Assembly: GCA_910579465.1 (NCBI GenBank)
Contig: CAJTUB010000007.1
Location: 15,714 to 79,713 of the forward strand
Direction of reading: 5' to 3'
Length of the DNA stretch: 64,000 nt
DNA from: an uncultured Lachnospiraceae bacterium
GTDB lineage: Bacteria > Bacillota > Clostridia > Lachnospirales > Lachnospiraceae
Below the pieces are notes generated by a model. That model saw only the letters and a list, made by a program, of their open reading frames with translations. It made no database searches and had not been told where the DNA came from. The position numbers and the translations under genes were made by a program. Positions 20,881-32,909 of this stretch are shown here, piece after piece (within the stretch, counting starts at the first letter, position 1; every line of letters starts with the position of its first letter).

Positions 20881-20970
20881 GAGGTTTTTGTTTTTTTGCC
20901 TGTGCCGTGATATAATAAAAAAAGGCAGCGCAGGTGTATCATGTGCTAAGACATATTTGGAGGTGATGGA

Positions 20971-21201: not shown

Positions 21202-21253
21202 GCGGGGCTGACAGGATGAAGTCAGCTTATAATTATCATTTCCACGGCATCTG

Positions 21254-21408: not shown

Positions 21409-21476
21409 ATTTTTTGCAACCGGAGGGGTTGCTTTGCGAGTAGATGGGTGAACGACAAATTTACGGAGGGATAACG

Positions 21477-22031
21477 ATGGAGGATGAACAAATCGTGGCG
21501 CTGTACTGGGAGCGTTCCGAGACGGCAATCAGGGAAACTGCGGCAAAGTATGAAAATTACTGCTATTCGATTGCATTCGGGATTTTAAAGAACCGCGAGG
21601 ACGCAAATGAAAGCGTGAACGATACCTGGCTCGATGCCTGGAACAGCATGCCGCCGCACAGGCCCTTTGCCCTCTCTACATTTCTGGGGAAGCTTACAAG
21701 GCGGGTATCCATTGACCGGTGGCGGCGCTATACGGCAAAAAAGCGGGGCGGCGGCGAAATGGCATATCTGCTTTCGGAGCTTACGGAATGCGTTCCGGCG
21801 GAGCGTACCGTGGAGCGGGACTGGGAGCTTTCCGAGCTTGCCCGCACGGTAAATGACTTTCTTCTGTCGCTGCCGGAAGAAAAGCAGAGGGTATTTTTAT
21901 GCCGCTACTGGTATGCCGATTCCGTTTCTTCGATTGCAAAACGGACAGGCTTCAGCCAAAGCAAGGTAAAATCCATGCTGTATCATAGCAGGAAGGCGTT
22001 GCGGGAGCATCTGGACAAGGAGGGATTTTAA
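21477..22031 (+). CDS. ECF-type sigma-70 family RNA polymerase sigma factor
   Basis: ATG at 21477 follows GGAGGG. It has region 2 (ESVNDTWLDAW) and a region 4 HTH (SIAKRTGFSQSKVKSMLYHSRKAL). Confidence 0.85.
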   Translation: MEDEQIVALYWERSETAIRETAAKYENYCYSIAFGILKNREDANESVNDTWLDAWNSMPPHRPFALSTFLGKLTRRVSIDRWRRYTAKKRGGGEMAYLLSELTECVPAERTVERDWELSELARTVNDFLLSLPEEKQRVFLCRYWYADSVSSIAKRTGFSQSKVKSMLYHSRKALREHLDKEGF

Positions 22032-23452
22032 TGAAACGGGTAAAGCCGGAGGATATTTTAGATGCGGTGGGGATGGTGGACGACAAACTGATAGGCCGGG
22101 CAAGGGAAGGGAAAAAGAAGCCGTTTTTCAAAAGGAGGGCGTTCCTTCCGGCAGTGGCTGCCGTGCTGGTGCTTTCTCTCGGCATCGGTCTGTTCTTTGG
22201 GAGAGGGCGGCTTTTGTTACATGCGTATGCAATCGCGGAGGCGGAGTATCCGACGATGTGTCCGTATCCGGAGAGCCAGTCTTATTCTAAGGAGTTGGAG
22301 GATTGGCTGGACAGCAGGGAGGCACAGCTGTCCGGGTACGATGAAGGCATGGCGCCGGATGGATTTTTTGCGGAGAGTATCCGGGAGTTTCTTTCGGAAA
22401 GACCGGGAGAGAACTGCGCCTATTCCCCGGTTAATGTCTATATGGCGCTCAGTATGCTGGCAGAGCTTACGGATGGAACAAGCCGTGCGCAGATACTGGG
22501 GCTGCTTGGCATACCCGATATCGAAACGCTGCGCGAAAACGCATCGGCGGTCTGGAATGCGTGCTACTGCGACGACGGGTGGATGACCAGCGTGCTTGCC
22601 AATTCCCTGTGGCTGAACCGGGACATCCGCTTTCATAAGGAAACACTGGAGACACTGGCAGAGACTTATTATGCGTCCTCTTATTGCGGCAGAATGGGCT
22701 CCGAAAGCATTGACAAGGCGTTAAGGGAATGGATGAACCAGCAGACCGGCGGACTGCTCCGTGACAGTATTGACGGGCTGCATCTGGACCAGCCAACCTT
22801 GCTTTCCCTGGTTTCCACGGTCTTTTTTCAGGCGGAATGGTGGAGCGGTTTCCCGAAAGAGAAAACGGAGCAGGGAACCTTTTATGCGCCTGCCGGAGAG
22901 GTTACCTGTGATTTTATGGGCCAGAAGGAAGATGATACCTATTACTGGGGAGATACCTTTTCTGCGGTACAGAAGGGGTTACGGGGCGGCTGCAAAATGT
23001 GGTTTATCCTGCCGGATGAGGGTATGACGCCGGAGGAGCTGCTTTCGGAGCCGGAGGCAATGGAGTTTTTGCTTTCCGACGGCGTATGGGAGAACCAGAA
23101 ACGACTTTCGGTTCGGTTTGTCGTGCCGAAGTTTGATATCAGTTCGGAAACGGATCTGATCGAAGGTCTGAAAAAGCTCGGCGTAACGGAAATCTTTGAT
23201 GGCAGGGCGGCAGATTTTTCCCCTCTTATAAGAGATACAGGGGAAGAACGGATTTCCGGTGCGCAGCATGCGGTAAGGGTGCAAATCGATGAGAAGGGCT
23301 GCTCGGCGGCGGCTTATACAAAGCTGGATCTGACGAAGGACGGTATGCCGTTAACAGATAATATTGACTTTATCGTAAACCGGCCGTTTTTGTTTGTCAT
23401 TACTTCGGAGGTGGGACTGCCGTTATTTACCGGCATCGTAAATACGCCGTAG
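22031..23452 (+). CDS. Membrane-anchored serpin (N-terminal anti-sigma-like segment, TM helix and serpin domain)
   Basis: The start overlaps the sigma stop (TAATG). TM helix FLPAVAAVLVLSLGIGLFFG. Serpin motifs are YSPVNVYMALSMLAELT, hinge EKGCSAAAYT and NRPFLFVI. Confidence 0.85.
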   Translation: MKRVKPEDILDAVGMVDDKLIGRAREGKKKPFFKRRAFLPAVAAVLVLSLGIGLFFGRGRLLLHAYAIAEAEYPTMCPYPESQSYSKELEDWLDSREAQLSGYDEGMAPDGFFAESIREFLSERPGENCAYSPVNVYMALSMLAELTDGTSRAQILGLLGIPDIETLRENASAVWNACYCDDGWMTSVLANSLWLNRDIRFHKETLETLAETYYASSYCGRMGSESIDKALREWMNQQTGGLLRDSIDGLHLDQPTLLSLVSTVFFQAEWWSGFPKEKTEQGTFYAPAGEVTCDFMGQKEDDTYYWGDTFSAVQKGLRGGCKMWFILPDEGMTPEELLSEPEAMEFLLSDGVWENQKRLSVRFVVPKFDISSETDLIEGLKKLGVTEIFDGRAADFSPLIRDTGEERISGAQHAVRVQIDEKGCSAAAYTKLDLTKDGMPLTDNIDFIVNRPFLFVITSEVGLPLFTGIVNTP

Positions 23453-23515
23453 CAGGCGCAGCGGTCCTTCAGACTTCCAGAATGTCAGATGCACAAAATG
23501 CGGAGCTCAAGGAGA
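23378..23515 (+). repeat. Left direct repeat (functional 3' end of the serpin gene plus downstream DNA)
   Basis: 23378-23474 aligns without gaps to 32614-32710, with 8 mismatches in 97 nt by hand count. Similarity resumes at the 17-nt box. Confidence 0.85.
23495..23511 (+). repeat. 17-nt box variant (AAAATGCGGAGCTCAAG) at the end of the left direct repeat
   Basis: It is one nt shorter than the consensus, the same variant as at 32763-32779. Confidence 0.6.
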
Positions 23516-23534
23516 TATTATTGGTAGAAATAAA

Positions 23535-23567
23535 GGGGACTGTCACTCAAAGTGTGGTCCCTTTTTA
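23535..23567 (+). terminator. Intrinsic terminator downstream of the serpin gene
   Basis: GGGGACTGTCAC-loop-GTGTGGTCCC followed by TTTTT. Confidence 0.6.
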
Positions 23568-23655
23568 CAAGTGGAGGATTGGTAAATAGAATTGTGTGGT
23601 CAGAGATATTCCATGAATATGAGTAGATATGTTTAAAAATGTAGAAATTTAGGAC

Positions 23656-23684
23656 TTGACATTATTTTACATTTATGTAATAAT
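23656..23684 (+). promoter_or_regulatory. Candidate sigma-A promoter of the island operon
   Basis: TTGACA, a 17-nt spacer, then AATAAT with TG at the extended -10 position. It lies about 85 nt upstream of the rSAM start. Confidence 0.5.
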
Positions 23685-23770
23685 AAGGCAATAAACATTA
23701 TATGCATTTTTGGGAAAGAGTGAGATAGCGCATTTGTATATTGAAACTTGATGTAAAAGGGAGGAGTAAA

Positions 23771-25099
23771 ATGAATTATAAGTATTCAATGTTTAACTAC
23801 TTTTTTACAGTAAATGACCGAAGGTATATATATAATACTATGCAAGGCACGAGAAGCATTTGTGAGATTACAAAAGAACACAACGTAATTTTTGATATAC
23901 TTCAAAGTGAGGATGTTTCAGGGATTAATCCTGAATTTCGTGAAATATTGATTGATAAAGGAATTCTTGTACAAGACGAAATTGATGAAATAAGCAAAAG
24001 AAATGTTTTATGTGCTAAAACAGTAAATGATGGGGTTCTACGTTTGGTAATTCATACGACAAAGCGATGTAACTTTAGGTGTAAATATTGTTGTTTAGAC
24101 TTTGAAGATGAAGACTTATCTATTGAAATGCAAGACAACATCTTTAGGTTTATTAAACATAATATTATAAATTATCAGGTTGTAGATGTTAATTGGTTTG
24201 GTGGAGAACCATTAATGAATGTAGATGCAATTATTAATTTATCATCTAAAATAAAGGATATTTGTAAAAACGTTGGTAAGATATATAAAAGCTCAATAAC
24301 AACTAATGGATACCTTTTATCAGAAAAAGTGGTAAACAGGCTGGTTAATGTCGGAGTTACTATTTTTTTTGTTACTTTGGATGGTTTGCCTGAATATCAT
24401 GATAAATTAAGGGTGTTGACAAATGGGGAGGGTACATATAACAAAATATATCAAAATCTTCTCAATATAAAAAAATTTCATTCCGCTAAGATAAAGGTTA
24501 ATATAAGAACTAATTTCACACGTGATATGATGGGAAATTATCAGAAAATATATAGAAACTTATCGAATGCCTTTGGAGATGACAGGAGATTTGCCTTATA
24601 CTTCAGAAGCGTTGTAGATTCAGGTGGAGAGCGAATTAATCAGATGAAAAACCAGATTTTAAATGGAAGACAAATTAATGAACTTGAAAATAATCTTGCC
24701 AGTATTAATGATGGGACAATAAATTATGATACAAATTATTATTCACTTGAACCAGGCGGATTTATTTGTCCTGCTATGAAATGTGGTAAATATACAATAG
24801 ATACTTGTGGAAAAGTATATAAATGTGATGTATTATCTGAAGAAACGGAACTTGGTTATTTGAATAGTTATGGGAAGATTGTTTATTGCAATTCTTGTGA
24901 AGAAAACTGGGTTGGAATAGCATTTAAATTTTTTGAAAGATGTGAGAATTGTCCGGTTAGTCCACTTTGCTTTAAAGGGGTATGTCCTATGCAAGAATTG
25001 ATAAATGGAGAAAAATTGTGTATTTTAGATTCCAGAGATAATAAATTAGATGGATTACTTGCTATGTTTGTTGCATCAAATAAGATTGAGGTGATTTAA
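23771..25099 (+). CDS. Radical SAM/SPASM-domain peptide-modifying enzyme (candidate RiPP maturase)
   Basis: ATG at 23771 follows AAGGGAGGAG. Motifs are CNFRCKYC (CX3CX2C) and WFGGEPL, plus C-terminal Cys clusters CPAMKC, CGKVYKC and CENCPVSPLCFKGVC. An N-terminal extension of about 90 aa precedes the core. Confidence 0.88.
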   Translation: MNYKYSMFNYFFTVNDRRYIYNTMQGTRSICEITKEHNVIFDILQSEDVSGINPEFREILIDKGILVQDEIDEISKRNVLCAKTVNDGVLRLVIHTTKRCNFRCKYCCLDFEDEDLSIEMQDNIFRFIKHNIINYQVVDVNWFGGEPLMNVDAIINLSSKIKDICKNVGKIYKSSITTNGYLLSEKVVNRLVNVGVTIFFVTLDGLPEYHDKLRVLTNGEGTYNKIYQNLLNIKKFHSAKIKVNIRTNFTRDMMGNYQKIYRNLSNAFGDDRRFALYFRSVVDSGGERINQMKNQILNGRQINELENNLASINDGTINYDTNYYSLEPGGFICPAMKCGKYTIDTCGKVYKCDVLSEETELGYLNSYGKIVYCNSCEENWVGIAFKFFERCENCPVSPLCFKGVCPMQELINGEKLCILDSRDNKLDGLLAMFVASNKIEVI

Positions 25100-25102
25100 T
25101 AA

Positions 25103-25330
25103 GTGGATATAAAACAGATTGTAATTGAGTGCTTAAAGGAATATGGAATTATTATTCAAGATGAAATTGATGAAAATACACCTTTTACTGATTATGGAAT
25201 GGATTCATTGATTTATATGATGCTTATATGTGATTTGGAAGAAAATCTTTCGAAGGAGTTTCTGGATTATTCATTATTAAGTCTGGAGAATATGTCAGTT
25301 AGTAAATTAGTATCTCTTATTGAAAACTGA
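25103..25330 (+). CDS. Acyl/peptidyl carrier protein-like small acidic protein
   Basis: GTG at 25103 follows GAGGTGA, 4 nt after the rSAM stop. 75 aa with FTDYGMDSLIYMMLICDLEE, matching ACP helix II (GxDSL). Confidence 0.75.
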   Translation: MDIKQIVIECLKEYGIIIQDEIDENTPFTDYGMDSLIYMMLICDLEENLSKEFLDYSLLSLENMSVSKLVSLIEN

Positions 25331-25399
25331 ATGGACTGTATTGATATCCTGTAATTGTGGGATATTTTTATGGTTAATTTATATGAGGAGGTGAATATT

Positions 25400-25513
25400 A
25401 TGAGGAAGATTAGTATTAAGAAGAACCAGAAGACAAAAGTTAATAAGGTTGTTTTTGCTGGTCCGAGACCATGTAATGGTTACAAAGATGAATGCACGCC
25501 ATCATCAAAATAA
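25400..25513 (+). CDS. Candidate precursor peptide, 37 aa (MRKISIKKNQKTKVNKVVFAGPRPCNGYKDECTPSSK)
   Basis: This ORF is below the track's size cutoff. GAGGAGGTGA lies 6 nt upstream of the ATG. The peptide is Lys-rich at the N-terminus with two Cys at the C-terminus, and a perfect hairpin follows. Confidence 0.65.
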   Translation: MRKISIKKNQKTKVNKVVFAGPRPCNGYKDECTPSSK

Positions 25514-25562
25514 TTTGTATTGCAGAATCCTTAGAGAATACTTATGTTTTAGGTATGGTGTG

Positions 25563-25602
25563 CAATTCTGCCCTTTGGACTTTCATCCAAAGGGCAGAAT
25601 TG
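25563..25602 (+). terminator. Perfect 17-bp stem-loop after the peptide gene (attenuator or RNA stabiliser; no U tract)
   Basis: CAATTCTGCCCTTTGGA, loop cttcca-sized (cttt ca, 6 nt), then TCCAAAGGGCAGAATTG. It is followed by TCAACAAAT rather than a T run. Confidence 0.55.
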
Positions 25603-25673
25603 TCAACAAATAAAATAAGTCAATTCCGTAATTAATAGTGAAATAGATATGTTGCAGGATTTAGGAGATAGTA

Positions 25674-27392
25674 ATGGGAAATATAGTTCATCTTTTTCAC
25701 CGGGTATGCAGAATCAATCGGTTTTATTTCATTCCATTTTTTGTGACGGAGATAGTTTCTTTGGGAATTAAAGTAATTCAGATTCTTTTTCCTAAAAGGT
25801 TATTTGTCGGATTAAATGAAGGTGCTACCCACGTATTGATTCTGAATATTGTTCTTTATCTCGGGGTTCTCGGAATCTTGAATTGTGCCCGAATTATATC
25901 AGAGCATTATAAAGAAAAGAATAGCTTATTAGTAAAAACTTGCTTAAGTGCAGATTTATATGAAGCAAACTGTGTTTCTAAATTTGCTGATTTTGAGAAG
26001 TACGAGGCACGTAAGAAATTTGAGCTTGCGAAAGAAGGCTTGCAAAAGGGAAACATTGCTATGATGATTGATAATGTAGTAATGTGTTTCTCTAATATTG
26101 TTTTTATCATTTCTGTTTCCTATGTATTCCACTATCTGAGCTGGTGGATTTCAATAGTAATGCTTATTTCGGTGCTGATTAATACGGCATGCGAGTATTT
26201 TCGTGTGAAATATGATTATGATTGCTATGAAAAATACAAAGAAGTAAATATGAAGATGGTGTATTCCAGGGATAAACTGACATGGAAGCAATTTGGAAAA
26301 GAAATTCGTTTATTTGGATTGTACGACTATGTATCGAATATAGCGGAAAAATATATAAATGAACTGTCGGCGATACAGAAAAATAAAAGCAAAAGAATAT
26401 TTTTAGTTTACTTTTTACTCGGATTATATGATATGTTACAACGCTTTTTGCTGATTGCTTATATTGTATGGTTGTGTTCGGTCGGCAGGGTTTCCATAGA
26501 AGATTTTACATCGTTGATTGTTGCTGTAATTGCATGTTTTTCTGCCGTAAACGATAACGCAAAGCTTATTGTAAAACTTGGTGAATCCGTAAAATATGTA
26601 AATTGCTATTTTGAGCTGATGAATGCTTCAATATGCAATAAGTTTGAGATGAAAGAACAGATTACCCGTTTTCAGAAGATAAAAATCAGTAATATGAAAT
26701 TTACATATCCAAACTCGCAGAGTGAAACCTTGAGGGGGATTTCTGTGACATTTGATGCAGGGAAAAAATATGGTATTGTTGGAAAAAATGGTAGCGGAAA
26801 AACCACATTTATTAAGCTTCTTTTAGGTTTATATGAGGTTCCTGAAGGAGTAATAACCTTGGATTGCCGTGATAAAACAGAATATCATTGTGATGAATGG
26901 TATTCAATGTTTTCAGCGGTATTGCAGGACTTCAATGTGTATGCATATACACTGGGAGATAATATTTCCATGTTATCAGAAATGAATAAGGACATTTCTT
27001 TTGATGGATTAGAGATAGATGGCGTTTCTTTGGATGATTATTTATCTGCAGAATACGGAGAGGGACATGACGTTTCTGGCGGGGAAGCGCAAAAAATAGC
27101 AATTATGCGTGTGCTCTTTCATAAGGCACCGGTTGTTATACTTGACGAACCTACGGCTGCATTATCTCCAGACGGGGAAATCAGGTTTTATGAAGAAGTA
27201 AAAACGAGATTTTGTGACAGGACGCTTTTTTTGGTGTCTCACAGGCTGGCAAGTTGTAAACTGTGTGATAATATACTTGTTTTTGACAAAGGACAAATCG
27301 TCGAAAATGGAACCCATGATGATTTGATGAAAAAGAAAGGTTTGTATTATGAGATGTATTCTTCCCAAAAAGATTTGTATGCGTGTAAATGA
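25674..27392 (+). CDS. ABC exporter half-transporter (TMD-NBD)
   Basis: Six predicted N-terminal helices. Walker A GKNGSGKTT, signature VSGGEAQK, Walker B VVILDEPT. No C39 peptidase domain. Confidence 0.88.
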   Translation: MGNIVHLFHRVCRINRFYFIPFFVTEIVSLGIKVIQILFPKRLFVGLNEGATHVLILNIVLYLGVLGILNCARIISEHYKEKNSLLVKTCLSADLYEANCVSKFADFEKYEARKKFELAKEGLQKGNIAMMIDNVVMCFSNIVFIISVSYVFHYLSWWISIVMLISVLINTACEYFRVKYDYDCYEKYKEVNMKMVYSRDKLTWKQFGKEIRLFGLYDYVSNIAEKYINELSAIQKNKSKRIFLVYFLLGLYDMLQRFLLIAYIVWLCSVGRVSIEDFTSLIVAVIACFSAVNDNAKLIVKLGESVKYVNCYFELMNASICNKFEMKEQITRFQKIKISNMKFTYPNSQSETLRGISVTFDAGKKYGIVGKNGSGKTTFIKLLLGLYEVPEGVITLDCRDKTEYHCDEWYSMFSAVLQDFNVYAYTLGDNISMLSEMNKDISFDGLEIDGVSLDDYLSAEYGEGHDVSGGEAQKIAIMRVLFHKAPVVILDEPTAALSPDGEIRFYEEVKTRFCDRTLFLVSHRLASCKLCDNILVFDKGQIVENGTHDDLMKKKGLYYEMYSSQKDLYACK

Positions 27393-27465
27393 TAATTTAA
27401 AGCTTTTAAAAGGTAGTGTATAAACTTTTTGATGTATGGTTATACACTTAATAAGGAGGAAAGGA

Positions 27466-29241
27466 ATGAAAAGGAGAAGATTACTTAGTAGTCTGCTGAA
27501 AGAAAGCATAAGGGTAGCTCCGGGTAATTTTATTGCTATTTCTGTTTCTACTGTTTTATCCGGACTTGCAACTGTGCTTTCTACCTTTTTTCCTGCGTTG
27601 CTCATTGATTGTCTGGTGTCGGCGAAGGGAAATAGGATAATTTTGTTTTATATTCTTGCCTATTCTGTTATCTTATGTCTTGTGGAAATCAGTCATAAGG
27701 CAGCCTCTTTGTATAGTACGGCAACCGGATATAGGGCAAATAACATTGCAACATTGAGAATACAACAAAAGGCTATGCGTATCTCATATGATAGCTGGGA
27801 TTCGCCTGAACATTTTCAAAAAATCAAACAGGCTGTAAATTCTTCCTGGGTATTTCAGACAATAACAGATGCTGTTTGCGGAAGTCTGCTTTCTGCAGTT
27901 ATAATATTGCTGCCAGCAATCTATATTGTTAGTAGAATTCACATATTGCTTTTTGTTTTTTTGTTGCTTCTTATTTTGATAGAAATGCGTATTGAAGAGA
28001 AATTTGATGAAAAGAAGTATGCGATTGAGGATCAGGTTATAGCACTTCAGAAGAAATCTGACTATGACGAGAAAGTGTTAACTGAAATGAAATACGGAAA
28101 AGAAGTCCGGCTTTTTAAGATGAAAGATGGTCTGATTCATCGTTATCTGGCAGACAGGAAAAAAGAAAATAACAGGAGGATAGATCAAGGCAGGGTATCG
28201 GTTCAATTTACTCTTATTTCATTACTTTTTTCTACTATTGAAGCAATCATTGTTTATCTCTTTGCAATTATCAAATACAATTGCGGGGAGGTCAATATTG
28301 CAGACTTTTTTGCATATGTAGGTGCAGTCATGCTTTTGGTTGAAGCTGTCAAGCAAATCGGATGGGCAAAAAACTGGATAAAAGATATATTGAATTACTA
28401 TGTATTTTATTATGAGTTTATGCAGACAAAAGAGGAAGAGAAAGAAAAAAGACTGAAAGAGAAGATTCAGGAAGGAGAAGACTCAGGAGAGGAAGAGCCA
28501 TTACTTCAAATGAATCATGTAAGCTATCAATATGAAAATGCTGTCGGATATGCGCTGGATGATATCTGCTTGAAAATAAACAAGGGAGAAAAGGTTGCCA
28601 TTGTCGGTGAAAATGGAGCCGGAAAATCGACTTTGGTAAAAACAATGCTTCATTTGTATGATAATTATTCGGGAGATATCTGTTATAAGGGAAAGAATAT
28701 CAGAGATATACCTGTAAAAGATTACTACACGAGATTATCGTCGGTATTTCAGGATTATTTTCTTCATGCCTTTTCTATAAGGGAGAATATAACTTTTGAT
28801 AAAGAGACTGACAAGGAAAGACTGCATAAATTATTCTTACAATATGATCTGGTTCATGTTTTAGAACCTTTGGAAAAAGGAATTGATACATGGTATTCCA
28901 AAGAATTGTGTGAAGATGGAATAGAACTGTCAGGAGGAGAGTGCCAAAAACTAGCTACCGTGCGTGGCTTATATAAAGATGCGGATATTCTCGTATTAGA
29001 TGAATCAACTGCGGCTCTTGATCCGATAGCAGAAAAGAAGTATTACGATACTCTTTTTGAAAATGTTGAACAAACAACTATTTTTATTACACATCGAATG
29101 GCAAGTACTAGGAAAGCTAATAAAATTATAGTAATTGACAAAGGAAAGATTGCTGAAACCGGTACATTTGATGAGTTATATTCGAGGCATGAATTGTTTT
29201 ATTCTTTTTTTTCTAAGCAGGCAGAGTTATACGAGGAGTAA
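27466..29241 (+). CDS. ABC exporter half-transporter (TMD-NBD), probable heterodimer partner
   Basis: ATG at 27466 follows AAGGAGGA. Walker A GENGAGKST, signature LSGGECQK, Walker B ILVLDEST. Confidence 0.88.
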   Translation: MKRRRLLSSLLKESIRVAPGNFIAISVSTVLSGLATVLSTFFPALLIDCLVSAKGNRIILFYILAYSVILCLVEISHKAASLYSTATGYRANNIATLRIQQKAMRISYDSWDSPEHFQKIKQAVNSSWVFQTITDAVCGSLLSAVIILLPAIYIVSRIHILLFVFLLLLILIEMRIEEKFDEKKYAIEDQVIALQKKSDYDEKVLTEMKYGKEVRLFKMKDGLIHRYLADRKKENNRRIDQGRVSVQFTLISLLFSTIEAIIVYLFAIIKYNCGEVNIADFFAYVGAVMLLVEAVKQIGWAKNWIKDILNYYVFYYEFMQTKEEEKEKRLKEKIQEGEDSGEEEPLLQMNHVSYQYENAVGYALDDICLKINKGEKVAIVGENGAGKSTLVKTMLHLYDNYSGDICYKGKNIRDIPVKDYYTRLSSVFQDYFLHAFSIRENITFDKETDKERLHKLFLQYDLVHVLEPLEKGIDTWYSKELCEDGIELSGGECQKLATVRGLYKDADILVLDESTAALDPIAEKKYYDTLFENVEQTTIFITHRMASTRKANKIIVIDKGKIAETGTFDELYSRHELFYSFFSKQAELYEE

Positions 29242-29247
29242 AAAATA

Positions 29248-31035
29248 ATGTATTTAGTTGATGTTGTGGTCGTAGATACCGGATTTACCAATCAAACAAA
29301 CAGTAATATTTGCTACAAAATTGAAGGATTGGGTATTGTAAGAAGGGGAAAATCATATTCCATAGTTTCGGATTATTTCGATGAAAAGAATCATGGTACA
29401 GGGGTAGTAGGCATTATATTTCAGCATGTTCCTAATGTGTCGTGTCTGGTTATAAAACTTGCAAATCCAGATGTTATTATTGAAGATATACTGTTTGCGC
29501 TTCAGTATATAATTGATAATGTGTCTTGTAAGTTTGTTAATCTTAGTTTTGGGATTTCTTTAGTTGATGATTATAGAAAAATTGACCAACTTGATGAATT
29601 ATGTAAAAAAATTGATGAAAAAGGAACTGTTATTGTTTCAGCATATAGCAATAATGGTGGAATTACTTATCCTGCTGCGTTTGAATCGGTAATAGGAGTT
29701 ACAACAGGAGAAGAATGTCATCGCATTGATGATATTCGGTATGTGTCACATAATGTAGTTAATTTTTGTGCGAAAGGAAATAATCAGCCAGTATTATCAG
29801 CAGAAGGTAATGGAAGAATTGTCAGAAGTGGCGATAGTTATGCTTGTGCACATGTGACAGGTATATTTTTAACAAAATATCAGCCATTAAAAAAACGGCA
29901 GGATTATTTAAATGATTTTGGGGATAAAAAGGGTTGTAAAGAAAAAGTTATTGATCAAGAGTATTTGATGATGGAAGAATGGAAAAATAAGTTGACAGGG
30001 AAGAAGTGTGCACTTCTATTTTGGGGAAAAGAAATGCATTCAATTGTACGTTTTTCCGAAGAGGCGATAGTTAATTTGATTGCGGTATATGATATGCGGC
30101 AACAGGGCAATATAGGCAGGGATGTATTTGAACTGATCAGAAATGAGAAGCGAGGTATTGTGATTGAAGATTATTTGAAAATGGATTTTTCCAAATTCGA
30201 AGTTCTTGTGATTGGTCATATTATTTCAGAATATTTGAGTGTCAATGTACTTAATTCATTAAAGAAAATTTACGCTCAATGTGTAGAAAATAATATTATA
30301 ATTTATTCTTTTGAGGAGATAGATAAATATATTGATGTTGATAAAAATACTTATTTTTGTCCAACAAGAATTAGAATATTGAGCCCTTATGAGAATTATG
30401 GTAAATTATTCCCTATTTCAACGCCAATTGTAGGAGTATTTGGTACAAGTTCGTCACAAGGTAAATTTTTTATTCAATTATCAATGAGACGCTTATTACG
30501 TAAAAAAGGATATGATGTTGGGTTTTTAGGAACAGAGCCAACATCACTTTTGTTTGGTGCAGATGATTTGTTCTCGTTTGGTTTTCATTCGAATTTGGGA
30601 GAAGATGGGTATTCCACAATTGTTACCTTAAATGAGATGCTTCATAGAATTGATGTGAAGAACAAAGATATAATAATTGTAGGATGCCAATCTGTAATTT
30701 TGCAAAATGTATATGAAAATATAAAAAACTACACAATAAAGCAAATAAATTTTTTGTTGGGAACGTTGCCTGATGTGTTTGTATTATGTGTAAACTATTA
30801 TGATACTACAGAATATGTAAAGAGGACAATAATGTTTTTAGAGTCGATGACAAATAATAAAGTTAAGAGTATTGTAATTTCTCCAGTAAATCGATCTGCG
30901 AAGGATTGCCCGTTAAGTCAAGGTAAGAAAGGGAAATATATATATCAAGTTACAAAGATATGTAATATTCCAGTAATTGATTCGCTAAAGGATAACTGGT
31001 GCAAAAATTTATTATTACAAATTGGTGTAGTTTGA
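29248..31035 (+). CDS. Subtilisin-like S8 peptidase domain fused to a C-terminal domain of about 370 aa and unknown family
   Basis: The catalytic triad motifs are VVVDTGF (Asp), NHGTGVVG (His) and GDSYACAHVTG (Ser). There is no signal peptide or prodomain. The C-terminal part contains VGVFGTSSSQGKFF (P-loop-like). Confidence 0.8.
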   Translation: MYLVDVVVVDTGFTNQTNSNICYKIEGLGIVRRGKSYSIVSDYFDEKNHGTGVVGIIFQHVPNVSCLVIKLANPDVIIEDILFALQYIIDNVSCKFVNLSFGISLVDDYRKIDQLDELCKKIDEKGTVIVSAYSNNGGITYPAAFESVIGVTTGEECHRIDDIRYVSHNVVNFCAKGNNQPVLSAEGNGRIVRSGDSYACAHVTGIFLTKYQPLKKRQDYLNDFGDKKGCKEKVIDQEYLMMEEWKNKLTGKKCALLFWGKEMHSIVRFSEEAIVNLIAVYDMRQQGNIGRDVFELIRNEKRGIVIEDYLKMDFSKFEVLVIGHIISEYLSVNVLNSLKKIYAQCVENNIIIYSFEEIDKYIDVDKNTYFCPTRIRILSPYENYGKLFPISTPIVGVFGTSSSQGKFFIQLSMRRLLRKKGYDVGFLGTEPTSLLFGADDLFSFGFHSNLGEDGYSTIVTLNEMLHRIDVKNKDIIIVGCQSVILQNVYENIKNYTIKQINFLLGTLPDVFVLCVNYYDTTEYVKRTIMFLESMTNNKVKSIVISPVNRSAKDCPLSQGKKGKYIYQVTKICNIPVIDSLKDNWCKNLLLQIGVV

Positions 31036-31108
31036 TAGGAATTTGTTGTATATGAAAGATAAACAGTAGTATTTGAATTTGAAATTGTTCTTAAGGAGGA
31101 GAATCATT

Positions 31109-32614
31109 TTGAGAAAAGAAGAAATGATGGAATTGCCGTTATCATCAAAACCAAGTATTATAACGTGCATTCATCAAGCATATCCGTGTGCAATTATTGA
31201 AAGCAAAGAATTGGCGTCGATTATAATTATAGACAAAAATAAAGACAAATGGTGTCAAACTACCCAAAATACAATAGTAGAAGAAAAAAATAATAGAATA
31301 CTAATTTCTCAAAAGGAGGAGATGGATGATTCTGCCACAGTTTTATGGAAGTCTTGTAAGTGTGAAGAAGAAATTGAGATTTACATTGAATATTTTAAAG
31401 AAATGGATAATAATCGATACATGGACATTTTTTTGTTTGATGATTTGCAAGAAGAATGTTTGTTGCAAGATAAAAACTTCGGGATTCGTTGGAATCAATA
31501 TGGATTGTTTGTGAAAAAAGAGATGTATGGATATAATACTAAAATTTTTAGATATATTAAATTTTATCGTAAAAATAATAGTATAAGTTGCTTTGTTTCG
31601 ATGGACGGAAAAGAATGGATTAATTTTACAAATAGAAAGATACCAAAAGAATGGGAAGATTTTGATTTAAAAATAGGGATTCATTTTGATTTTGGGTTTA
31701 ATACATTTTATATTTGGAAAAAAATGAATTTGATTCAATTAGCATATAATACAAGTGATCCATGCAAGGGAATTTTGTTAGATTATTTTGTGATTCCAAG
31801 GAAAAATTATGACAATAGCTACAATTGGTTTTCTAATTATCTTGAAACTATTTATGATACAATATATGAAATATCTGATCTTTTTACTAATATTCATGAG
31901 TATATACAGTGGAATATAAGTCATGGTTATTATGTTAATATTGCATTAGATGAGTTTTTCGTTCCTGAAAGATCAAGTTATAAAAAAGAACATTATCAAC
32001 ACTATAATTTATTTTTTGGATATGATAATTATGCCAAAAAGTATAAAATTATGGGATATGGAAAGCAAAGCAAACCGTTTATAAGCGAATTGTCTTATGA
32101 AGAACTGTCAGAAGAAATAGTTACAAGTGATAAAATAGTTCGTTATAAGTATGTAATTAATAATAATGTTAATATGAAATTTTGTATCTCTATAATAATT
32201 TCCGGGTTAAGAGAGTTTATTATGGGAGAAAATACAAGTTACAAATATGCGAATCTGCTCACTGAAAAGCCGATGATATATGGTATTTCAATTTTTCCAT
32301 ATTTGATTGAGAATGAACAAGGAAGGAAAGAAATTCGTATTGATACTAGAATTTCTTTTTGTATCTTGGAGCATAGTAAGTTAATGAAAGAACGAATTGA
32401 CTATTTATTTAAGAAAAAGTACATTTCTCAGGAACAATATCCAAGATTTGATTTTTTAATAATGGAAATCAATAAATTAGCAGAAGGTTTATTGAAAATA
32501 ATTATAAAAAATAAAGTGAAACCAATATATGATGATAGGATAGATGAAATGTTGAAAAAGTTATATAATGAGTATAATACTTTTTGTAAGGAATTAATAT
32601 CGACGTTATCCTGA
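31109..32614 (+). CDS. Hypothetical protein of about 500 aa, family not recognised
   Basis: AAGGAGGA (31093-31100) precedes an in-frame TTG at 31109 and an ATG at 31124. The ORF is long and AT-rich. It has no catalytic motif I can name. Confidence 0.7.
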   Translation: MRKEEMMELPLSSKPSIITCIHQAYPCAIIESKELASIIIIDKNKDKWCQTTQNTIVEEKNNRILISQKEEMDDSATVLWKSCKCEEEIEIYIEYFKEMDNNRYMDIFLFDDLQEECLLQDKNFGIRWNQYGLFVKKEMYGYNTKIFRYIKFYRKNNSISCFVSMDGKEWINFTNRKIPKEWEDFDLKIGIHFDFGFNTFYIWKKMNLIQLAYNTSDPCKGILLDYFVIPRKNYDNSYNWFSNYLETIYDTIYEISDLFTNIHEYIQWNISHGYYVNIALDEFFVPERSSYKKEHYQHYNLFFGYDNYAKKYKIMGYGKQSKPFISELSYEELSEEIVTSDKIVRYKYVINNNVNMKFCISIIISGLREFIMGENTSYKYANLLTEKPMIYGISIFPYLIENEQGRKEIRIDTRISFCILEHSKLMKERIDYLFKKKYISQEQYPRFDFLIMEINKLAEGLLKIIIKNKVKPIYDDRIDEMLKKLYNEYNTFCKELISTLS

Positions 32615-32688
32615 ACCGGCCGTTTTTGTTTGTCATTACTTCGGAGGTGGGACTGCCGTTATTTATCGGCATTGTAAATACACCGTAG
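32614..32688 (+). pseudogene. Orphan 3' fragment of the serpin gene (last 24 codons plus stop)
   Basis: It translates as NRPFLFVITSEVGLPLFIGIVNTP*. It has 3 nt differences from 23378-23452, one of them non-synonymous (T to I). Confidence 0.85.
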
Positions 32689-32762
32689 CAGGCACAGCAC
32701 TCCTTTGGACAAATGCAAAATAAGATGCGATACCGCCGGCGGAACTTTTTTCGGGTGACTCA

Positions 32763-32779
32763 AAAATGCAGAGCTCAGG
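32763..32779 (+). repeat. 17-nt box variant (AAAATGCAGAGCTCAGG) at the end of the right direct repeat
   Basis: It lies 11 nt upstream of the -35 of the SNF2 promoter. Confidence 0.6.
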
Positions 32780-32790
32780 GAGAAATCCAG

Positions 32791-32819
32791 TAGAAAAAAT
32801 CCCGGAAATATGGTATACT
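32791..32819 (+). promoter_or_regulatory. Candidate promoter of the SNF2 helicase gene
   Basis: TAGAAA, a 17-nt spacer, then TATACT with TG at the extended -10 position. The 17-nt box lies 11 nt upstream. Confidence 0.5.
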
Positions 32820-32909
32820 TTGGGGGAAGGCGTTTGACTTTGCCGGAAGGCAGAGTCATCTGCCTTCCTGGATACTACATGGTTACTGTGTTTTTGAGAG
32901 GGGCTGCCG

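What the first reader, a model, noticed from the sequence alone, without database searches (positions are those of the whole stretch)
23516..32614. AT-rich 9.1-kb island encoding an rSAM/SPASM, carrier-protein, 37-aa Cys peptide, double ABC exporter, S8 fusion and orphan protein: candidate uncharacterised RiPP-type system
Base composition drops abruptly, by eye from well above 50% GC to roughly one-third GC, exactly between two direct repeats. Seven tightly spaced co-directional genes follow one sigma-A-like promoter (23656-23684).

1. A radical SAM enzyme with CNFRCKYC, GGEP, SPASM-type C-terminal Cys clusters (CPAMKC, CGKVYKC, CENCPVSPLCFKGVC) and an N-terminal extension of about 90 aa, in the position where RiPP recognition elements usually sit.
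2. A 75-aa ACP-like protein (YGMDSL), translationally coupled to the rSAM gene.
3. An untracked 37-aa ORF with a strong RBS.
4. and 5. Two TMD-NBD exporters lacking a C39 peptidase domain.
6. A subtilase without signal peptide or prodomain, fused to about 370 aa of unknown function.
7. A protein of about 500 aa with no motif I can name.

The island has no LanB/LanC/LanM, YcaO, regulator, immunity gene or recombinase. From family knowledge, an rSAM/SPASM enzyme next to a short Cys peptide predicts thioether (sacti- or ranthipeptide-like) or related crosslinks. The carrier protein and the two unknown domains suggest extra chemistry.

I recall TIGRFAMs/NCBIfam entries, defined only by comparative genomics, for a clostridial peptide maturation system that combines an rSAM/SPASM maturase with an acyl carrier-related protein. 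I know of no characterised product. Whether this island belongs to that family is untested here.
Basis: partly seen in the sequence, partly recalled or inferred. Interest (0 to 1): 0.88.

Follow-up and report, generated by a model that had tools for sequence, protein, structure and literature searches.

The report
Acquired radical-SAM peptide gene cluster
A 9-kb AT-rich island inserted behind a serpin gene is a horizontally acquired gene cluster for a small cysteine-crosslinked ribosomal peptide, and it carries an uncharacterised carrier-protein module that probably adds an extra chemical group to the peptide.

Summary
An island of about 31% G+C (unique DNA 23519-32594) lies between imperfect direct repeats that duplicate the serpin 3' end. 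A related genome has the empty site, with serpin directly followed by the SNF2 gene.

The island is a RiPP (ribosomally made, post-translationally modified peptide) operon. The untracked 37-aa ORF is the precursor. Its core motif, RPCNG[YH][KR]DECTP, recurs after the carrier-protein gene in cassettes whose radical SAM enzymes are only 40-45% identical.

- The maturase has CX3CX2C plus a complete 7-Cys SPASM signature. Its nearest solved relative is the thioether-forming CteB.
- The fusion protein is an active, signal-less S8 leader-type peptidase joined to a DUF1611/DgcN-like domain that aligns with TIGR04066.
- The "orphan" has the fold of carrier-protein-dependent papain-like enzymes (CcbD, AziU2/U3; BtrH_N at sequence level), with a lectin-like insertion. 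It always sits near a carrier protein, often beside a known carrier loader.
- No curated family cut-off is reached. This is an unnamed sibling of the CcpM/TIGR04066/TIGR04069 system, not a member.
- The same accessory module also accompanies an MNIO maturase on Bacillus mycoides plasmids.

The chemistry is inferred, not shown. This is a new variant of a known kind; interest 0.62.

The parts
23359..23518 (+). Left direct repeat. It is the functional 3' end of the serpin gene (stop at 23452) plus spacer.
   Evidence: Repeat family D1, 116 nt at 90%. The three-way alignment with the empty site in L022 shows the gapped extension to ~23518.
23656..23684 (+). Sigma-70-type promoter-like site (TTGACA, 17 nt, TG-extended AATAAT), 87 nt upstream of the rSAM start codon.
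   Evidence: It is the best site in the scan, 11 of 12 matches. Both hexamers and the spacer are identical in L001, although neighbouring bases differ. Function has not been shown.
23771..25099 (+). Radical SAM/SPASM peptide maturase, 442 aa.
   Evidence: PF04055 scores 65.6 bits. There are full-length but sub-threshold matches to RiPP maturase models: TIGR04463 184.7, CefB 146, Clo7bot 138, PapB 103. C100/C104/C107 and the seven SPASM cysteines C333, C352, C391, C394, C400, C405 and C417 are invariant in 27 homologues. The best solved relative is CteB (5wgg), E 2e-16.
25103..25330 (+). 75-aa acyl-carrier-type protein. GTG start 4 nt after the rSAM stop codon.
   Evidence: PF00550 scores 30.2 bits against a cut-off of 20.8. 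The G-x-D-S-[LI] serine is conserved in all eight carrier proteins aligned.
25400..25513 (+). Precursor peptide, 37 aa: MRKISIKKNQKTKVNKVVFAGPRPCNGYKDECTPSSK. Lys-rich leader and a two-Cys core.
   Evidence: RBS GAGGAGGTG 7 nt upstream. The same position and core motif occur in L008 and L009. Against L001 it is 100% identical in protein, with 2 synonymous nucleotide changes. Leader and core pattern are shared with 4 more cassettes.
25563..25602 (+). Perfect 17-bp stem with a 6-nt loop between the precursor gene and the ABC genes. Probable transcript attenuator or stabiliser.
   Evidence: Inverted repeat I9, 100% complementary. The fold energy z-score is -5.4 with 0 of 200 shuffles as good, and a stem occurs at the same position in L009 (z -4.7). 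The Rfam mir-2067 hit here is below threshold and is chance.
25674..27392 (+). ABC exporter half-transporter 1 (TMD-NBD, 572 aa), no C39 peptidase domain.
   Evidence: Near full-length sub-threshold matches to MsbA, CydC and bacteriocin exporter models; PF00005 85 bits.
27436..29241 (+). ABC exporter half-transporter 2 (601 aa, or 591 aa from ATG 27466), no C39 domain.
   Evidence: The gene call in L001 starts at the position equivalent to 27466.
29248..31035 (+). Fusion protein, 595 aa. Residues 1-~225 are a signal-less, prodomain-less S8 peptidase. Residues ~241-595 are a DUF1611/DgcN-like (TIGR04066-like) domain.
   Evidence: PF00082 35 bits and PF07755 40 bits. QhpE model 86 bits on residues 6-207; TIGR04066 71.8 bits on 262-526. 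The D10/H49/S197/N135 residues are invariant. AF2 model pLDDT 86.5. Fold hits: 2g0t and 2obn E ~3e-12 (TM 0.73-0.76 of target), DgcN 7xrj E 1e-8, EpiP/NisP/LicP E ~1e-7. There are 316 homologues of ~600 aa.
31109..32614 (+). The 'orphan', 501 aa. Papain-like N-domain plus helical C-domain of the CcbD/AziU/BtrH type, with a ~200-aa concanavalin/lectin-like beta-sandwich inserted after the N-terminal helix.
   Evidence: No Pfam or NCBIfam hit for this protein. AF2 pLDDT 83. Foldseek: AziU2-U3 E 5.7e-7, CcbD E 3e-4, lectins for the insertion. BtrH_N weakly hit by 7 of 20 family members. The profile finds 2602 cluster representatives. Short forms without the insertion occur in sister cassettes.
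32595..32786 (+). Right direct repeat. It is a non-coding copy of the serpin 3' end plus spacer. The last ~6 codons and the stop codon of the final island gene lie inside it.
   Evidence: Over the serpin-derived stretch, its four differences from the left copy are all G/C to A/T.

Best explanation
The island is a horizontally acquired, single-operon biosynthetic gene cluster for a small ribosomal peptide.

Shown by comparison:
- The 37-aa product of 25400-25513 is the precursor. It has a Lys-rich leader and a conserved core, RPCNG[YH][KR]DECTP.
- The cassette rSAM, carrier protein, peptide, two ABC genes and the S8-DUF1611 fusion is conserved. A CcbD/BtrH-fold protein is found in every cassette seen.

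Inferred from family knowledge:
1. The rSAM/SPASM enzyme binds the leader and uses 5'-deoxyadenosyl radical chemistry to link one or both cysteine sulfurs to carbon atoms of nearby residues. Asp30 and Glu31 are the most likely acceptors, as in QhpD and PapB; Thr33 and Asn26 are alternatives.
2. The cytoplasmic S8 domain removes the leader.
3. The carrier protein, once phosphopantetheinylated, carries a small acyl-type group. The CcbD/BtrH-fold protein transfers that group to an amine of the peptide, either the new N-terminus or a lysine.
4. The DUF1611/DgcN-like domain fused to the protease is the most likely loader or second acyltransferase in this island.
5. The two ABC half-transporters form a heterodimer that exports the product.

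My confidence differs by layer: about 0.9 that this is a RiPP cluster with this precursor, about 0.6 for thioether chemistry, and about 0.4 for carrier-protein-dependent acyl transfer to the peptide.
For: Insertion and acquisition.
- The empty site in L022 has serpin and SNF2 146 bp apart. The window carries 9.3 kb extra at exactly that point.
- G+C is ~0.31 in the island against ~0.52 outside.
- Island genes are 94-97% identical to L001, while the flanking serpin and SNF2 genes are only 86-88% identical (pS 0.05-0.18 against 0.32-0.39).

Precursor.
- The core is conserved next to rSAM enzymes that are 40-45% identical.
- 0 non-synonymous and 2 synonymous changes against L001.
- All island genes have dN/dS of 0.12-0.47.

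Maturase.
- Complete rSAM and SPASM cysteine sets.
- The top models are all RiPP maturases.
- CteB is the nearest solved structure.

Protease.
- The triad is intact and there is no signal peptide or prodomain.
- It folds like the lanthipeptide leader peptidases EpiP, NisP and LicP.

Carrier module.
- The DSL serine is conserved.
- The orphan has the fold of CcbD, which has been crystallised with a PCP domain, and of AziU2/U3. BtrH_N is hit weakly by other family members.
- The H-x5-G-x-D motif is conserved in long and short forms.
- A carrier protein lies near an orphan-family gene in 15 distinct loci, counting the window itself: window, L002, L004, L007, L008, L009, L011, L012, L013, L014, L016, L024, L025, L026 and L027.
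- In four of these loci a recognised carrier loader is also present. FkbH domain proteins above cut-off lie between the carrier protein and the orphan in L002 and L011. L013 has an adenylation-carrier fusion and an amino acid-[ACP] ligase-like protein. L012 has an acyl ligase next to the carrier protein.
- The CtaG paper (PMC12865890) describes this fold class as carrier-protein-dependent ligases.
Against: - There are no chemical data of any kind.
- The cysteine at the start of the N-terminal helix of the orphan (C32 in the 513-aa ORF, C20 from TTG 31109) is present here. It is Tyr or Ser in 4 of the 20 long homologues aligned and is absent in all short forms. A Cys-His-Asp covalent mechanism is therefore not a family-wide feature. 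The best structural hit, AziU2/U3, is an aziridine-forming enzyme, not a transacylase.
- The island has no canonical carrier loader and no phosphopantetheinyl transferase.
- The loader role of the DUF1611 domain rests only on its fusion, its co-occurrence and its fold similarity to the N-acetyltransferase DgcN.
- An RRE in the rSAM N-terminus could not be detected by Pfam.
- The spacing of Cys to Asp/Glu differs from the C-X3-D motif of PapB substrates.
- The island has no immunity gene or regulator, so the biological role of the product (antibiotic or signal) is open.
Confidence: 0.7

Rival explanations
1. It is a RiPP cluster, but the rSAM/SPASM enzyme does something other than thioether formation. 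Candidates are a C-C or C-O crosslink, epimerisation, or another cysteine transformation.
For: No curated thioether-forming family reaches its cut-off (PapB 103 against 340, SCIFF 81.7 against 425, QhpD 75.6 against 453). The best models (TIGR04463, Clo7bot, CefB) have no product established in the sources I could read. SPASM enzymes are chemically diverse (PMC9062424).
Against: Cysteine is the only feature common to all seven cores aligned. The nearest solved relative is the thioether synthase CteB. The invariant Asp-Glu next to Cys in the three orthologous cores fits the Cys-Asp and Cys-Glu links made by PapB (PMC9413430 abstract) and, from my own knowledge of the field, by QhpD.
Confidence: 0.25
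2. The carrier protein, the DUF1611 domain and the CcbD-fold protein do not decorate the peptide. They act instead as a leader-dependent processing, chaperoning or export scaffold. The carrier protein would be a structural partner and the papain-like protein a second peptidase or a non-catalytic binder that uses its lectin-like domain.
For: - The putative nucleophile cysteine is not conserved across the family.
- The same module and the same MKK..KKP..K-type leader accompany two unrelated core maturases, rSAM here and an MNIO enzyme on Bacillus mycoides p479. That pattern suits a module that reads the leader.
- The island has no loader.
Against: - The phosphopantetheine-attachment serine is conserved in all eight carrier proteins aligned and in the two inspected later.
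- Dedicated loaders sit beside the carrier protein and the orphan in other clusters: FkbH, an adenylation domain, an amino acid-[ACP] ligase-like protein and an acyl ligase. That makes little sense for an unloaded scaffold.
- Separate PqqD proteins are present in L002, L004 and L011, so the carrier protein does not replace the RRE there.
Confidence: 0.3
3. The rSAM enzyme matures a protein rather than a peptide. It would be an anaerobic sulfatase maturase or a QhpD-type maturase of an enzyme subunit, and the short ORF would be spurious.
For: One database cluster of this rSAM clade is named 'arylsulfatase' by its source (P0088). The S8 domain's best NCBIfam model is QhpE, and there is a weak QhpD hit.
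Against: anSME scores 69.8 against 349, QhpD 75.6 against 453 and QhpE 86 against 165. No sulfatase or amine dehydrogenase gene lies in or beside the island. The short ORF is conserved in position and sequence.
Confidence: 0.02
4. The island is an anti-phage defence island, or a decaying and non-functional remnant of a mobile element.
For: The island is AT-rich and flanked by repeats. PADLOC viperin and ATPase models hit the rSAM core and the ABC nucleotide-binding domains.
Against: Those hits cover only the generic domains. The fusion, the carrier protein and the last gene hit nothing in PADLOC. All seven genes are intact, tightly spaced and under purifying selection (dN/dS 0.12-0.47). The cassette is conserved in distant lineages.
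Confidence: 0.03

Closest known systems
CcpM / CLI_3235-type Cys-rich peptide maturation system (NCBIfam TIGR04068 rSAM, TIGR04066, TIGR04069 carrier-related protein). An example is the SacP23 cluster of Paenibacillus polymyxa #23 (PMC10731318).
   Same: The part list matches: an rSAM/SPASM maturase, a small carrier-type protein, a TIGR04066/DUF1611-like protein, a subtilisin-like protease, ABC export and a short Cys-containing precursor. The C-terminal domain of the fusion aligns end to end with TIGR04066 in relatives (positions 2-359 of 361).
   Different: - Every model scores far below its cut-off: 89.8 against 500, 71.8 against 200, and no TIGR04069 hit.
- Here the protease and the TIGR04066-like protein are fused.
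- A CcbD-fold gene is part of the cassette.
- The precursor family is different.
- The CcpM system itself is only annotated, not characterised, in the papers I could read.
QhpD / QhpE / QhpF maturation of the QhpC subunit of quinohemoprotein amine dehydrogenase
   Same: Both combine an rSAM/SPASM enzyme, a cytoplasmic signal-less subtilisin-like leader protease and ABC export. QhpE is the best NCBIfam model for the S8 domain (86 bits here, 117 bits in the Bacillus homologue). The Cys plus Asp/Glu content of the core also fits. The roles of QhpD, QhpE and QhpF are from my own knowledge of the field.
   Different: The scores are below cut-off. There are no dehydrogenase genes. The substrate is a 37-aa free peptide rather than an enzyme subunit. 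The carrier protein, the DUF1611 domain and the CcbD-fold protein have no counterpart in the Qhp system.
Ranthipeptide and SCIFF maturases (PapB/freyrasin, CteB/thermocellin)
   Same: Both are rSAM/SPASM enzymes acting on short Cys-containing precursors. CteB is the nearest solved structure (E 2e-16). PapB links Cys to Asp or Glu (PMC9413430 abstract).
   Different: PapB scores 103 against 340 and SCIFF 81.7 against 425. The core motif is different and there are only two cysteines. The accessory module is absent from those systems.
CtaG / CcbD / BtrH / AsbE papain-like carrier-protein-dependent ligases, and the fold relative AziU2/U3
   Same: - The architecture is bipartite: a papain-like N-domain and a helical C-domain.
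- There is a His-x5-Gly-x-Asp strand motif.
- A cysteine sits at the start of the first helix in the window protein. It is residue 20 counted from TTG 31109; the CcbD mutant in PDB entry 9dks is C19S.
- The genes are obligately associated with carrier proteins.
   Different: - Only family members other than the window protein hit BtrH_N, and only weakly (7 of 20, best E 2.4e-4).
- There is no match to the sequence of any solved structure.
- A ~200-aa lectin-like insertion is present.
- The cysteine is not conserved across the family.
- The presumed acceptor is a ribosomal peptide. No paper I could search reports that for this fold.
DUF1611 proteins (TM0796 2g0t, Ava_3511 2obn) and the N-acetyltransferase DgcN (7xrj)
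   Same: The whole C-terminal 355 aa share this fold (E 2.5e-12 to 1e-8, TM up to 0.76 of the target). PF07755 is above its cut-off.
   Different: Here the domain is fused to an S8 peptidase and embedded in a RiPP operon. Its substrate and cofactor are unknown.
Uncharacterised MNIO (DUF692, BufB/HvfB-like) cluster on the Bacillus mycoides and B. albus ~500-kb plasmids (for example NZ_CP036025.1)
   Same: It has the same accessory module in the same order: ABC exporter, carrier protein, Lys-rich-leader precursors, S8-DUF1611 fusion (29% identity over 97-99% of the query) and a short orphan homologue (HMM E 8e-38).
   Different: The core maturase is an MNIO enzyme with a partner protein instead of rSAM/SPASM. 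The core peptide is GELGCGTGCTGGVLGRTRGW. RefSeq annotates the parts only generically.

Membership tests
Radical SAM superfamily with SPASM domain | A CX3CX2C cluster motif, plus the 7-Cys SPASM pattern CX9-15GX4C ... CX2CX5CX3-4C ... C | tested here: met
   C100/C104/C107 are invariant in 27 homologues. So are C333-X13-G347-X4-C352, C391-X2-C394-X5-C400-X4-C405 and C417. PF04055 scores 65.6 bits against 29.5. The Pfam SPASM model itself was not hit.
TIGR04463 family rSAM/SPASM RiPP maturase (best-scoring NCBIfam model) | Whole-protein score at or above the curated cut-off of 525 bits | tested here: not met
   184.7 bits here. Five clade members score 162-188 bits.
CcpM Cys-rich peptide maturation system (TIGR04068 / TIGR04066 / TIGR04069) | All three proteins reach their curated cut-offs of 500, 200 and 70 bits | tested here: not met
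   The rSAM enzyme scores 89.8. The fusion C-domain scores 71.8. The window carrier protein has no TIGR04069 hit at E <= 1, and relatives reach only 16.6-18.5 bits.
Anaerobic sulfatase maturase (TIGR03942) | Score at or above 349 bits and a sulfatase substrate gene nearby | tested here: not met
   69.8 bits. There is no sulfatase gene in the island or its flanks.
QhpD/QhpE quinohemoprotein amine dehydrogenase maturation | QhpD at or above 453 bits, QhpE at or above 165 bits, and dehydrogenase subunit genes present | tested here: not met
   75.6 and 86 bits. No qhp structural genes were seen.
Ranthipeptide or sactipeptide (chemical class) | Thioether between a Cys sulfur and a non-alpha or alpha carbon of another residue | not testable with these tools
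   This needs MS/MS and NMR of the product. PapB (103 against 340), SCIFF (81.7 against 425) and RumMC (51.5 against 720) are all below cut-off.
RiPP precursor peptide | A short ORF conserved beside the maturase in divergent cassettes, with a leader and a core, under purifying selection | tested here: met
   Against L001 there are 0 non-synonymous and 2 synonymous changes. The numbers are small.
RRE (PqqD-like leader-recognition element) in the rSAM N-terminus | A winged-helix domain detectable by a PqqD or RRE profile | tested here: inconclusive
   No PqqD hit in six N-terminal segments at E <= 10. The N-terminus does align with the N-termini of the RiPP maturase models (from residue 4-13). 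RRE-Finder is not available here.
Peptidase S8 (subtilase) | Asp-His-Ser triad with an oxyanion Asn, and the Pfam gathering score | tested here: met
   D10, H49, S197 and N135 are invariant in 29 sequences. PF00082 scores 35 bits against 21.8. The fold matches EpiP, NisP, LicP and intracellular subtilisin.
DUF1611 (PF07755) / DgcN fold | The Pfam gathering score, and the two-domain Rossmann-like plus P-loop fold | tested here: met
   40.2 bits against 25. A phmmer hit to 2g0t covers residues 241-510. Foldseek gives 2g0t E 2.5e-12 with TM 0.76 of the target, and DgcN 7xrj E 1.2e-8.
Acyl/peptidyl carrier protein (PP-binding) | The Pfam gathering score and a conserved phosphopantetheine-attachment serine | tested here: met
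   PF00550 scores 30.2 against 20.8. The [GI]-x-D-S-[LIF] motif is conserved in eight aligned carrier proteins and in two inspected later. Actual modification is not testable here.
CtaG/CcbD/BtrH-type carrier-protein-dependent papain-like ligases | Bipartite fold: a papain-like N-domain plus a helix-rich C-domain | tested here: met
   Foldseek probability is 1.0 to 8gs1 (E 5.7e-7) and to 7yn2, 7yn1, 9dks and 9dkr (E ~3e-4 to 3e-3). TM is 0.40-0.50 of the target and rmsd is 6-8 A, so the match is at fold level only. BtrH_N is weakly hit by 7 of 20 members.
CtaG/CcbD/BtrH-type carrier-protein-dependent papain-like ligases | Conserved Cys-His-Asp catalytic triad | tested here: inconclusive
   His310 is invariant and Asp318 is conserved in most members, in an H-x5-G-x-D motif shared with the short forms. 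Cys32 is present in the window protein and in 16 of 20 long forms, but is Tyr or Ser in the rest and is absent in the short forms. I could not superpose the model on CcbD to check residue equivalence.
CtaG/CcbD/BtrH-type carrier-protein-dependent papain-like ligases | Works with a carrier-protein-bound donor, with genomic association as the proxy | tested here: met
   A carrier protein lies near the gene in 15 distinct loci, the window included. Recognised loaders are adjacent in four of them. The sample is small and partly selected through the same proteins.

The most novel reading that the evidence does not exclude
The carrier protein, the DUF1611/DgcN-like domain and the CcbD/BtrH-fold protein together form a portable thiotemplated tailoring module for ribosomal peptides. 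A small group is loaded on a phosphopantetheine arm and then ligated to the peptide by a protease-fold enzyme. The group would be acetyl or acyl here, glyceryl where FkbH is present, and aminoacyl where adenylation enzymes are present. This ribosomal/thiotemplate hybrid logic plugs into unrelated core maturases (rSAM/SPASM here, MNIO on Bacillus plasmids) and is tied to a shared Lys-rich leader.
Probability: 0.35. Interest if true: 0.8.

Novelty: new variant of a known kind. Interest (0 to 1): 0.62.

Why it matters
If the model is right, this island gives a compact, seven-gene, single-promoter entry point to a peptide family that has no characterised product. The family is widespread in gut and soil Firmicutes: at least 429 rSAM homologues, at least 316 fusion homologues, and 2602 cluster representatives of the last gene.

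It would also link two fields that are usually treated apart: ribosomal peptide maturation, and carrier-protein (thiotemplated) ligation by protease-fold enzymes of the CtaG/CcbD/BtrH type.

It would assign a first function to TIGR04066/DUF1611-type and TIGR04069-type proteins. Those have been known only from comparative genomics.

The finding that the same module serves both rSAM and MNIO maturases suggests a reusable tailoring and processing unit of interest for peptide engineering.

The clean empty-site comparison also documents recent horizontal spread of a biosynthetic cluster to the same chromosomal site in two diverged hosts.

Tried and rejected
- NCBIfam, Pfam and PADLOC scans of all island proteins found no curated equivalog and no defence system.
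- A sequence search of the last gene's family against solved structures found nothing usable, with either the long-form or the short-form profile. Only fold comparison worked.
- A Pfam search for a PqqD/RRE domain in six rSAM N-termini was negative.
- An Rfam scan of 21000-34000 gave only a sub-threshold miRNA-model hit on the hairpin, which I reject as chance.
- The terminator scan found no canonical intrinsic terminator after the precursor gene. The hairpin lacks a T-tract.
- A scan of the species-representative genomes with the orphan profile returned only 2 loci. The word-indexed protein search returned only 36 homologues, which under-represents the family; the exhaustive profile search found 2602.
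- Literature searches for CcpM, TIGR04066/TIGR04069, ScmC, DUF1611/DgcN, carrier proteins in sacti- and ranthipeptide clusters, and MNIO plus carrier protein found no characterisation of this module. The DgcN search was swamped by unrelated acronyms. The library lacks most subscription journals, so absence there is weak evidence.
- I considered that the 510-531-aa proteins next to the orphan in L002 and L011 might be orphan paralogues, forming an AziU2/U3-like heterodimer. I rejected this: they are FkbH-domain proteins.
- I considered a tRNA- or integrase-mediated integration. The island has no recombinase and no tRNA at its ends, so the integration mechanism remains unknown.

Full report
**1. 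The observation**

In 500-nt windows, G+C is 0.51-0.57 upstream of 23250 and 0.46-0.51 downstream of 32750. It falls to 0.24-0.38 between 23500 and 32600. No other stretch of the 64-kb window behaves this way.

The trough is bounded by a direct repeat: 23359-23474 matches 32595-32710 (116 nt, 90% identity). In a gapped alignment the repeat continues to about 23518 and 32786. The left copy is the real 3' end of a serpin gene (22031-23452). The right copy is non-coding. Over the serpin-derived stretch it differs from the left copy only by four G/C-to-A/T changes.

Seven co-directional ORFs fill the interval. I revised three sets of coordinates:
- rSAM gene: 23771-25099.
- Short ORF: 25400-25513.
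- Last gene: 31109-32614. The start was chosen from its RBS and from the N-termini of homologues.

**2. It is an insertion, and a recent one**

A related assembly (L022, NCBI GCA_910577175.1) has the same sigma factor, serpin and SNF2-helicase genes, but the serpin stop codon and the SNF2 start codon are 146 bp apart. In a BLAST comparison, window 23460 and 32779 map to L022 9862 and 9869, so 9.3 kb is extra in the window.

A second metagenomic contig (L001) carries the same island at the same site. There the island genes are 94-97% identical to the window, with synonymous divergence (pS) of 0.05-0.18. The flanking serpin and SNF2 genes are only 86% and 88% identical, with pS of 0.32-0.39.

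The island is therefore younger than the split of its two hosts and has reached, or been exchanged at, the same site in both. The 150-190-nt diverged repeat looks like the product of a single crossover between the serpin 3' end and a copy of that sequence carried by the incoming DNA. The island has no recombinase, so the mechanism is unknown.

**3. The genes**

*Maturase.* The first protein is a radical SAM enzyme (PF04055). CX3CX2C and seven further cysteines in the SPASM arrangement are invariant across 27 homologues. Its best NCBIfam matches are all full-length RiPP maturase models: TIGR04463 184.7 bits, CefB 146, Clo7bot 138, geopeptide 125, PapB 103, CcpM 89.8. Each is far below its curated cut-off, and the anaerobic sulfatase maturase model scores 69.8 against 349. 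Five other members of the clade behave the same way, so the whole clade lacks a curated model. The nearest solved structure is CteB, the thioether-forming SCIFF maturase.

*Carrier protein.* The second protein passes the PP-binding threshold. It keeps the attachment serine, as do all eight carrier proteins aligned from related loci.

*ABC exporters.* The two ABC proteins are TMD-NBD half-transporters without a C39 domain.

*Fusion protein.* It has an S8 domain that starts at residue 1. The domain has no signal peptide and no prodomain, and its Asp/His/Ser/Asn catalytic set is invariant. The remaining 355 residues pass the DUF1611 threshold. They match TM0796 by sequence and fold like the DUF1611 structures 2g0t and 2obn and the N-acetyltransferase DgcN. 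The S8 part folds like the lanthipeptide leader peptidases EpiP, NisP and LicP. The NCBIfam model TIGR04066, the 'peptide maturation system protein' of the CcpM system, aligns with this C-terminal part at sub-threshold score. The fusion architecture is common: 316 homologues of about 600 aa.

**4. The 37-aa ORF is the precursor**

The closest cassettes have rSAM enzymes 45% and 40% identical to this one (L008 and L009). In both, a short ORF sits in the same place, between the carrier-protein gene and the first ABC gene. The core is nearly identical in all three:

- Window: MRKISIKKNQKTKVNKVVFAGPRPCNGYKDECTPSSK
- L008: MKAQVFKNLKKPGKADKQMNKLVLSGKRPCNGYRDECTPARN
- L009: MKKKLIKISKKSKMNKVVLSGTRPCNGHKDECTPSQS

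Between the window and L001 the ORF has two synonymous and no non-synonymous changes, while its neighbours have accumulated amino-acid changes.

More distant cassettes have different cores but the same plan: a Lys-rich MK(K)..KKP..K leader, a short hydrophobic stretch, and then a Cys-containing core (L016, L024, L025).

A stable stem-loop follows the precursor gene in the window (17 perfect pairs; fold z-score -5.4) and, with a different sequence, in L009. Such stems are common after RiPP precursor genes; that statement is from my own knowledge.

**5. The 'orphan'**

The protein itself has no Pfam or NCBIfam hit. The word-indexed search found only 36 unnamed homologues, and only two loci turned up among 185,579 species genomes. 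An exhaustive profile search, however, finds 2602 cluster representatives, 235 of them at E <= 1e-30. It is a sizeable unannotated family.

The AlphaFold model has pLDDT 83 and pTM 0.81. It shows four parts:
- an N-terminal strand and helix;
- a ~200-residue beta-sandwich;
- an alpha/beta region;
- a C-terminal helical bundle.

Foldseek against the PDB returns the AziU2-U3 complex (E 5.7e-7) and CcbD (E about 3e-4), including CcbD bound to the PCP domain of CcbZ. Legume-lectin, VIP36 and ERGIC-53 folds match the sandwich. Seven of twenty family members also touch Pfam BtrH_N weakly, and two touch Peptidase_C39_2.

The CtaG paper (PMC12865890) groups CtaG, AsbE, BtrH and MllDE as ligases that use carrier-protein-bound donors. 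They share a papain-like N-domain, a helical C-domain and a Cys-His-Asp triad. That paper lists AziU2/U3 and CcbD as the only solved structures with a comparable fold. [quoted passage not shown]

The family keeps an H-x5-G-x-D motif. The window protein has a cysteine at the start of the first helix, but that cysteine is replaced in 4 of the 20 long forms aligned and in all short forms. The triad is therefore not a family-wide feature.

**6. The orphan belongs to the cassette and travels with carrier proteins**

Sister cassettes contain 326-367-aa homologues that match the orphan profile at its N-terminal motif and from about position 200-270 onward. They lack the sandwich (L008, L024, L025, L026; a 194-aa remnant in L009). 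L016/L017 repeat the window's full seven-gene order with a long form.

Long forms also occur in clusters built around unrelated rSAM enzymes (L002, L004, L011, L014, L027) or without an obvious RiPP core (L012, L013). A carrier protein lies near an orphan-family gene in 15 distinct loci, counting the window.

In four of those loci a recognised carrier loader is present:
- FkbH-domain proteins above their curated cut-off sit between the carrier protein and the orphan in L002 and L011.
- L013 has an adenylation-carrier fusion and an amino acid-[ACP] ligase-like protein.
- L012 has an acyl ligase next to the carrier protein.

This is the main support for a carrier-protein-dependent transfer function. 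The window island has no such loader. The DUF1611/DgcN-like domain is the only candidate, and that assignment is an inference.

**7. The module is independent of the core maturase**

tblastn against plasmids found the fusion (29% identity, 97-99% coverage) and a short orphan homologue on ~500-kb plasmids of Bacillus mycoides, B. albus and related Bacillus isolates.

In NZ_CP036025.1 the gene order is as follows:
- ABC exporter;
- phosphopantetheine-binding protein;
- two 44-aa peptides (MKK[AT]LKKPTKVGKEVEETKVTLYMGELGCGTGCTGGVLGRTRGW);
- S8-DUF1611 fusion;
- a DUF692/MNIO enzyme (BufB model 231 bits, HvfB 208, both below cut-off);
- a 247-aa protein;
- the short orphan homologue.

The same leader style and the same accessory genes thus serve an rSAM/SPASM enzyme in one case and an MNIO enzyme in the other.

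**8. Mechanism**

The steps are set out under Best explanation. What the sequence comparisons establish is the RiPP nature of the island, the identity of the precursor, the integrity and conservation of every gene, and the association of the orphan family with carrier proteins.

Three things are inferred:
- thioether formation, from the enzyme's relatives and the Cys/Asp/Glu content of the core;
- leader removal by the S8 domain;
- acyl-type transfer from the carrier protein to the peptide.

The biological role of the product is open. One sister cassette lies next to agrB and a LytTR two-component pair (L024), which hints at signalling or quorum-sensing control. The window island has no regulator and no immunity gene.

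**9. Comparison and novelty**

The system works like a sacti- or ranthipeptide cluster with QhpE-style cytoplasmic leader removal. It is a sibling of the CcpM/TIGR04066/TIGR04069 system, which in the papers available to me is only annotated. It fails every curated membership cut-off.

I found no paper describing the S8-DUF1611 fusion, the CcbD-fold component or their pairing with a carrier protein in RiPP clusters. The paper library is incomplete, so that is weak evidence of absence.

I rate the finding a new variant of a known kind. It is a good genome-mining lead with a clear experimental path, but it has no chemistry yet, so I score interest at 0.62.

Noticed in passing
window 23771-32614 against L001; flanks 22031-23452 and 32910-36134: The island is 94-97% identical between the window and contig L001, while the flanking serpin and SNF2 genes are only 86-88% identical (pS 0.05-0.18 against 0.32-0.39). 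The island therefore moved between, or swept through, two diverged hosts at the same site.
   Followed up: partly
window 32595-32614: The last ~6 codons and the stop codon of the final island gene are encoded by the right copy of the serpin-derived repeat, in a different reading frame from serpin. The recombination junction therefore lies inside the gene's 3' end.
   Followed up: no
window ~37440, against L022 14542-17347: A second strain-level indel lies 4.6 kb downstream of the island. About 2.8 kb present in L022 (a MatE gene and a response-regulator fragment) is absent from the window. L001 has MatE plus a complete two-component pair there.
   Followed up: partly
L026 (Bacillus mycoides plasmid p479, NZ_CP036025.1 452777-459687): This is an uncharacterised MNIO (DUF692) RiPP cluster in a cultured organism. 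It has two tandem 44-aa precursors differing by one leader residue, a carrier protein, an S8-DUF1611 fusion and a short orphan homologue. It would be a tractable system for studying the shared module.
   Followed up: partly
L002 8355-9950; L011 8404-9936: FkbH-domain proteins (204 and 219 bits against a cut-off of 147) are embedded in rSAM/PqqD RiPP-like clusters, between a carrier protein and an orphan homologue. This suggests glyceryl-type units on a carrier protein in a RiPP context. The same clusters carry NTP_transf_5 genes and, respectively, an HprK-related (L002) and a ScmC/HPr-kinase-like (L011) gene.
   Followed up: partly
L024 2693-6134: A sister cassette lies directly downstream of agrB and is flanked by a LytTR response regulator and a histidine kinase. 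This hints at quorum-sensing control, or at a signalling role for the peptide.
   Followed up: no
L012 880-4385: An orphan homologue sits beside apparent defence genes: an HTH protein plus a reverse-transcriptase-like gene, a DncV-like nucleotidyltransferase with an AGS_C domain, and an Sa_NUDIX protein. It is followed by a non-RiPP-looking cluster with two acyl ligases, two rSAM enzymes and a DegT aminotransferase.
   Followed up: no
window 25545-25617: The Rfam mir-2067 model hits the post-precursor hairpin at 28.4 bits against a gathering score of 70, E 0.027. A eukaryotic miRNA model is matching a long perfect stem, so this is chance.
   Followed up: yes
window 20500-21500: A smaller G+C dip (0.43-0.47) lies upstream of the sigma-factor gene, in the stretch between the divergently oriented sulfate-transporter-type gene and the sigma/serpin pair. 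Part of it (21000-21347) does not align with L022.
   Followed up: no
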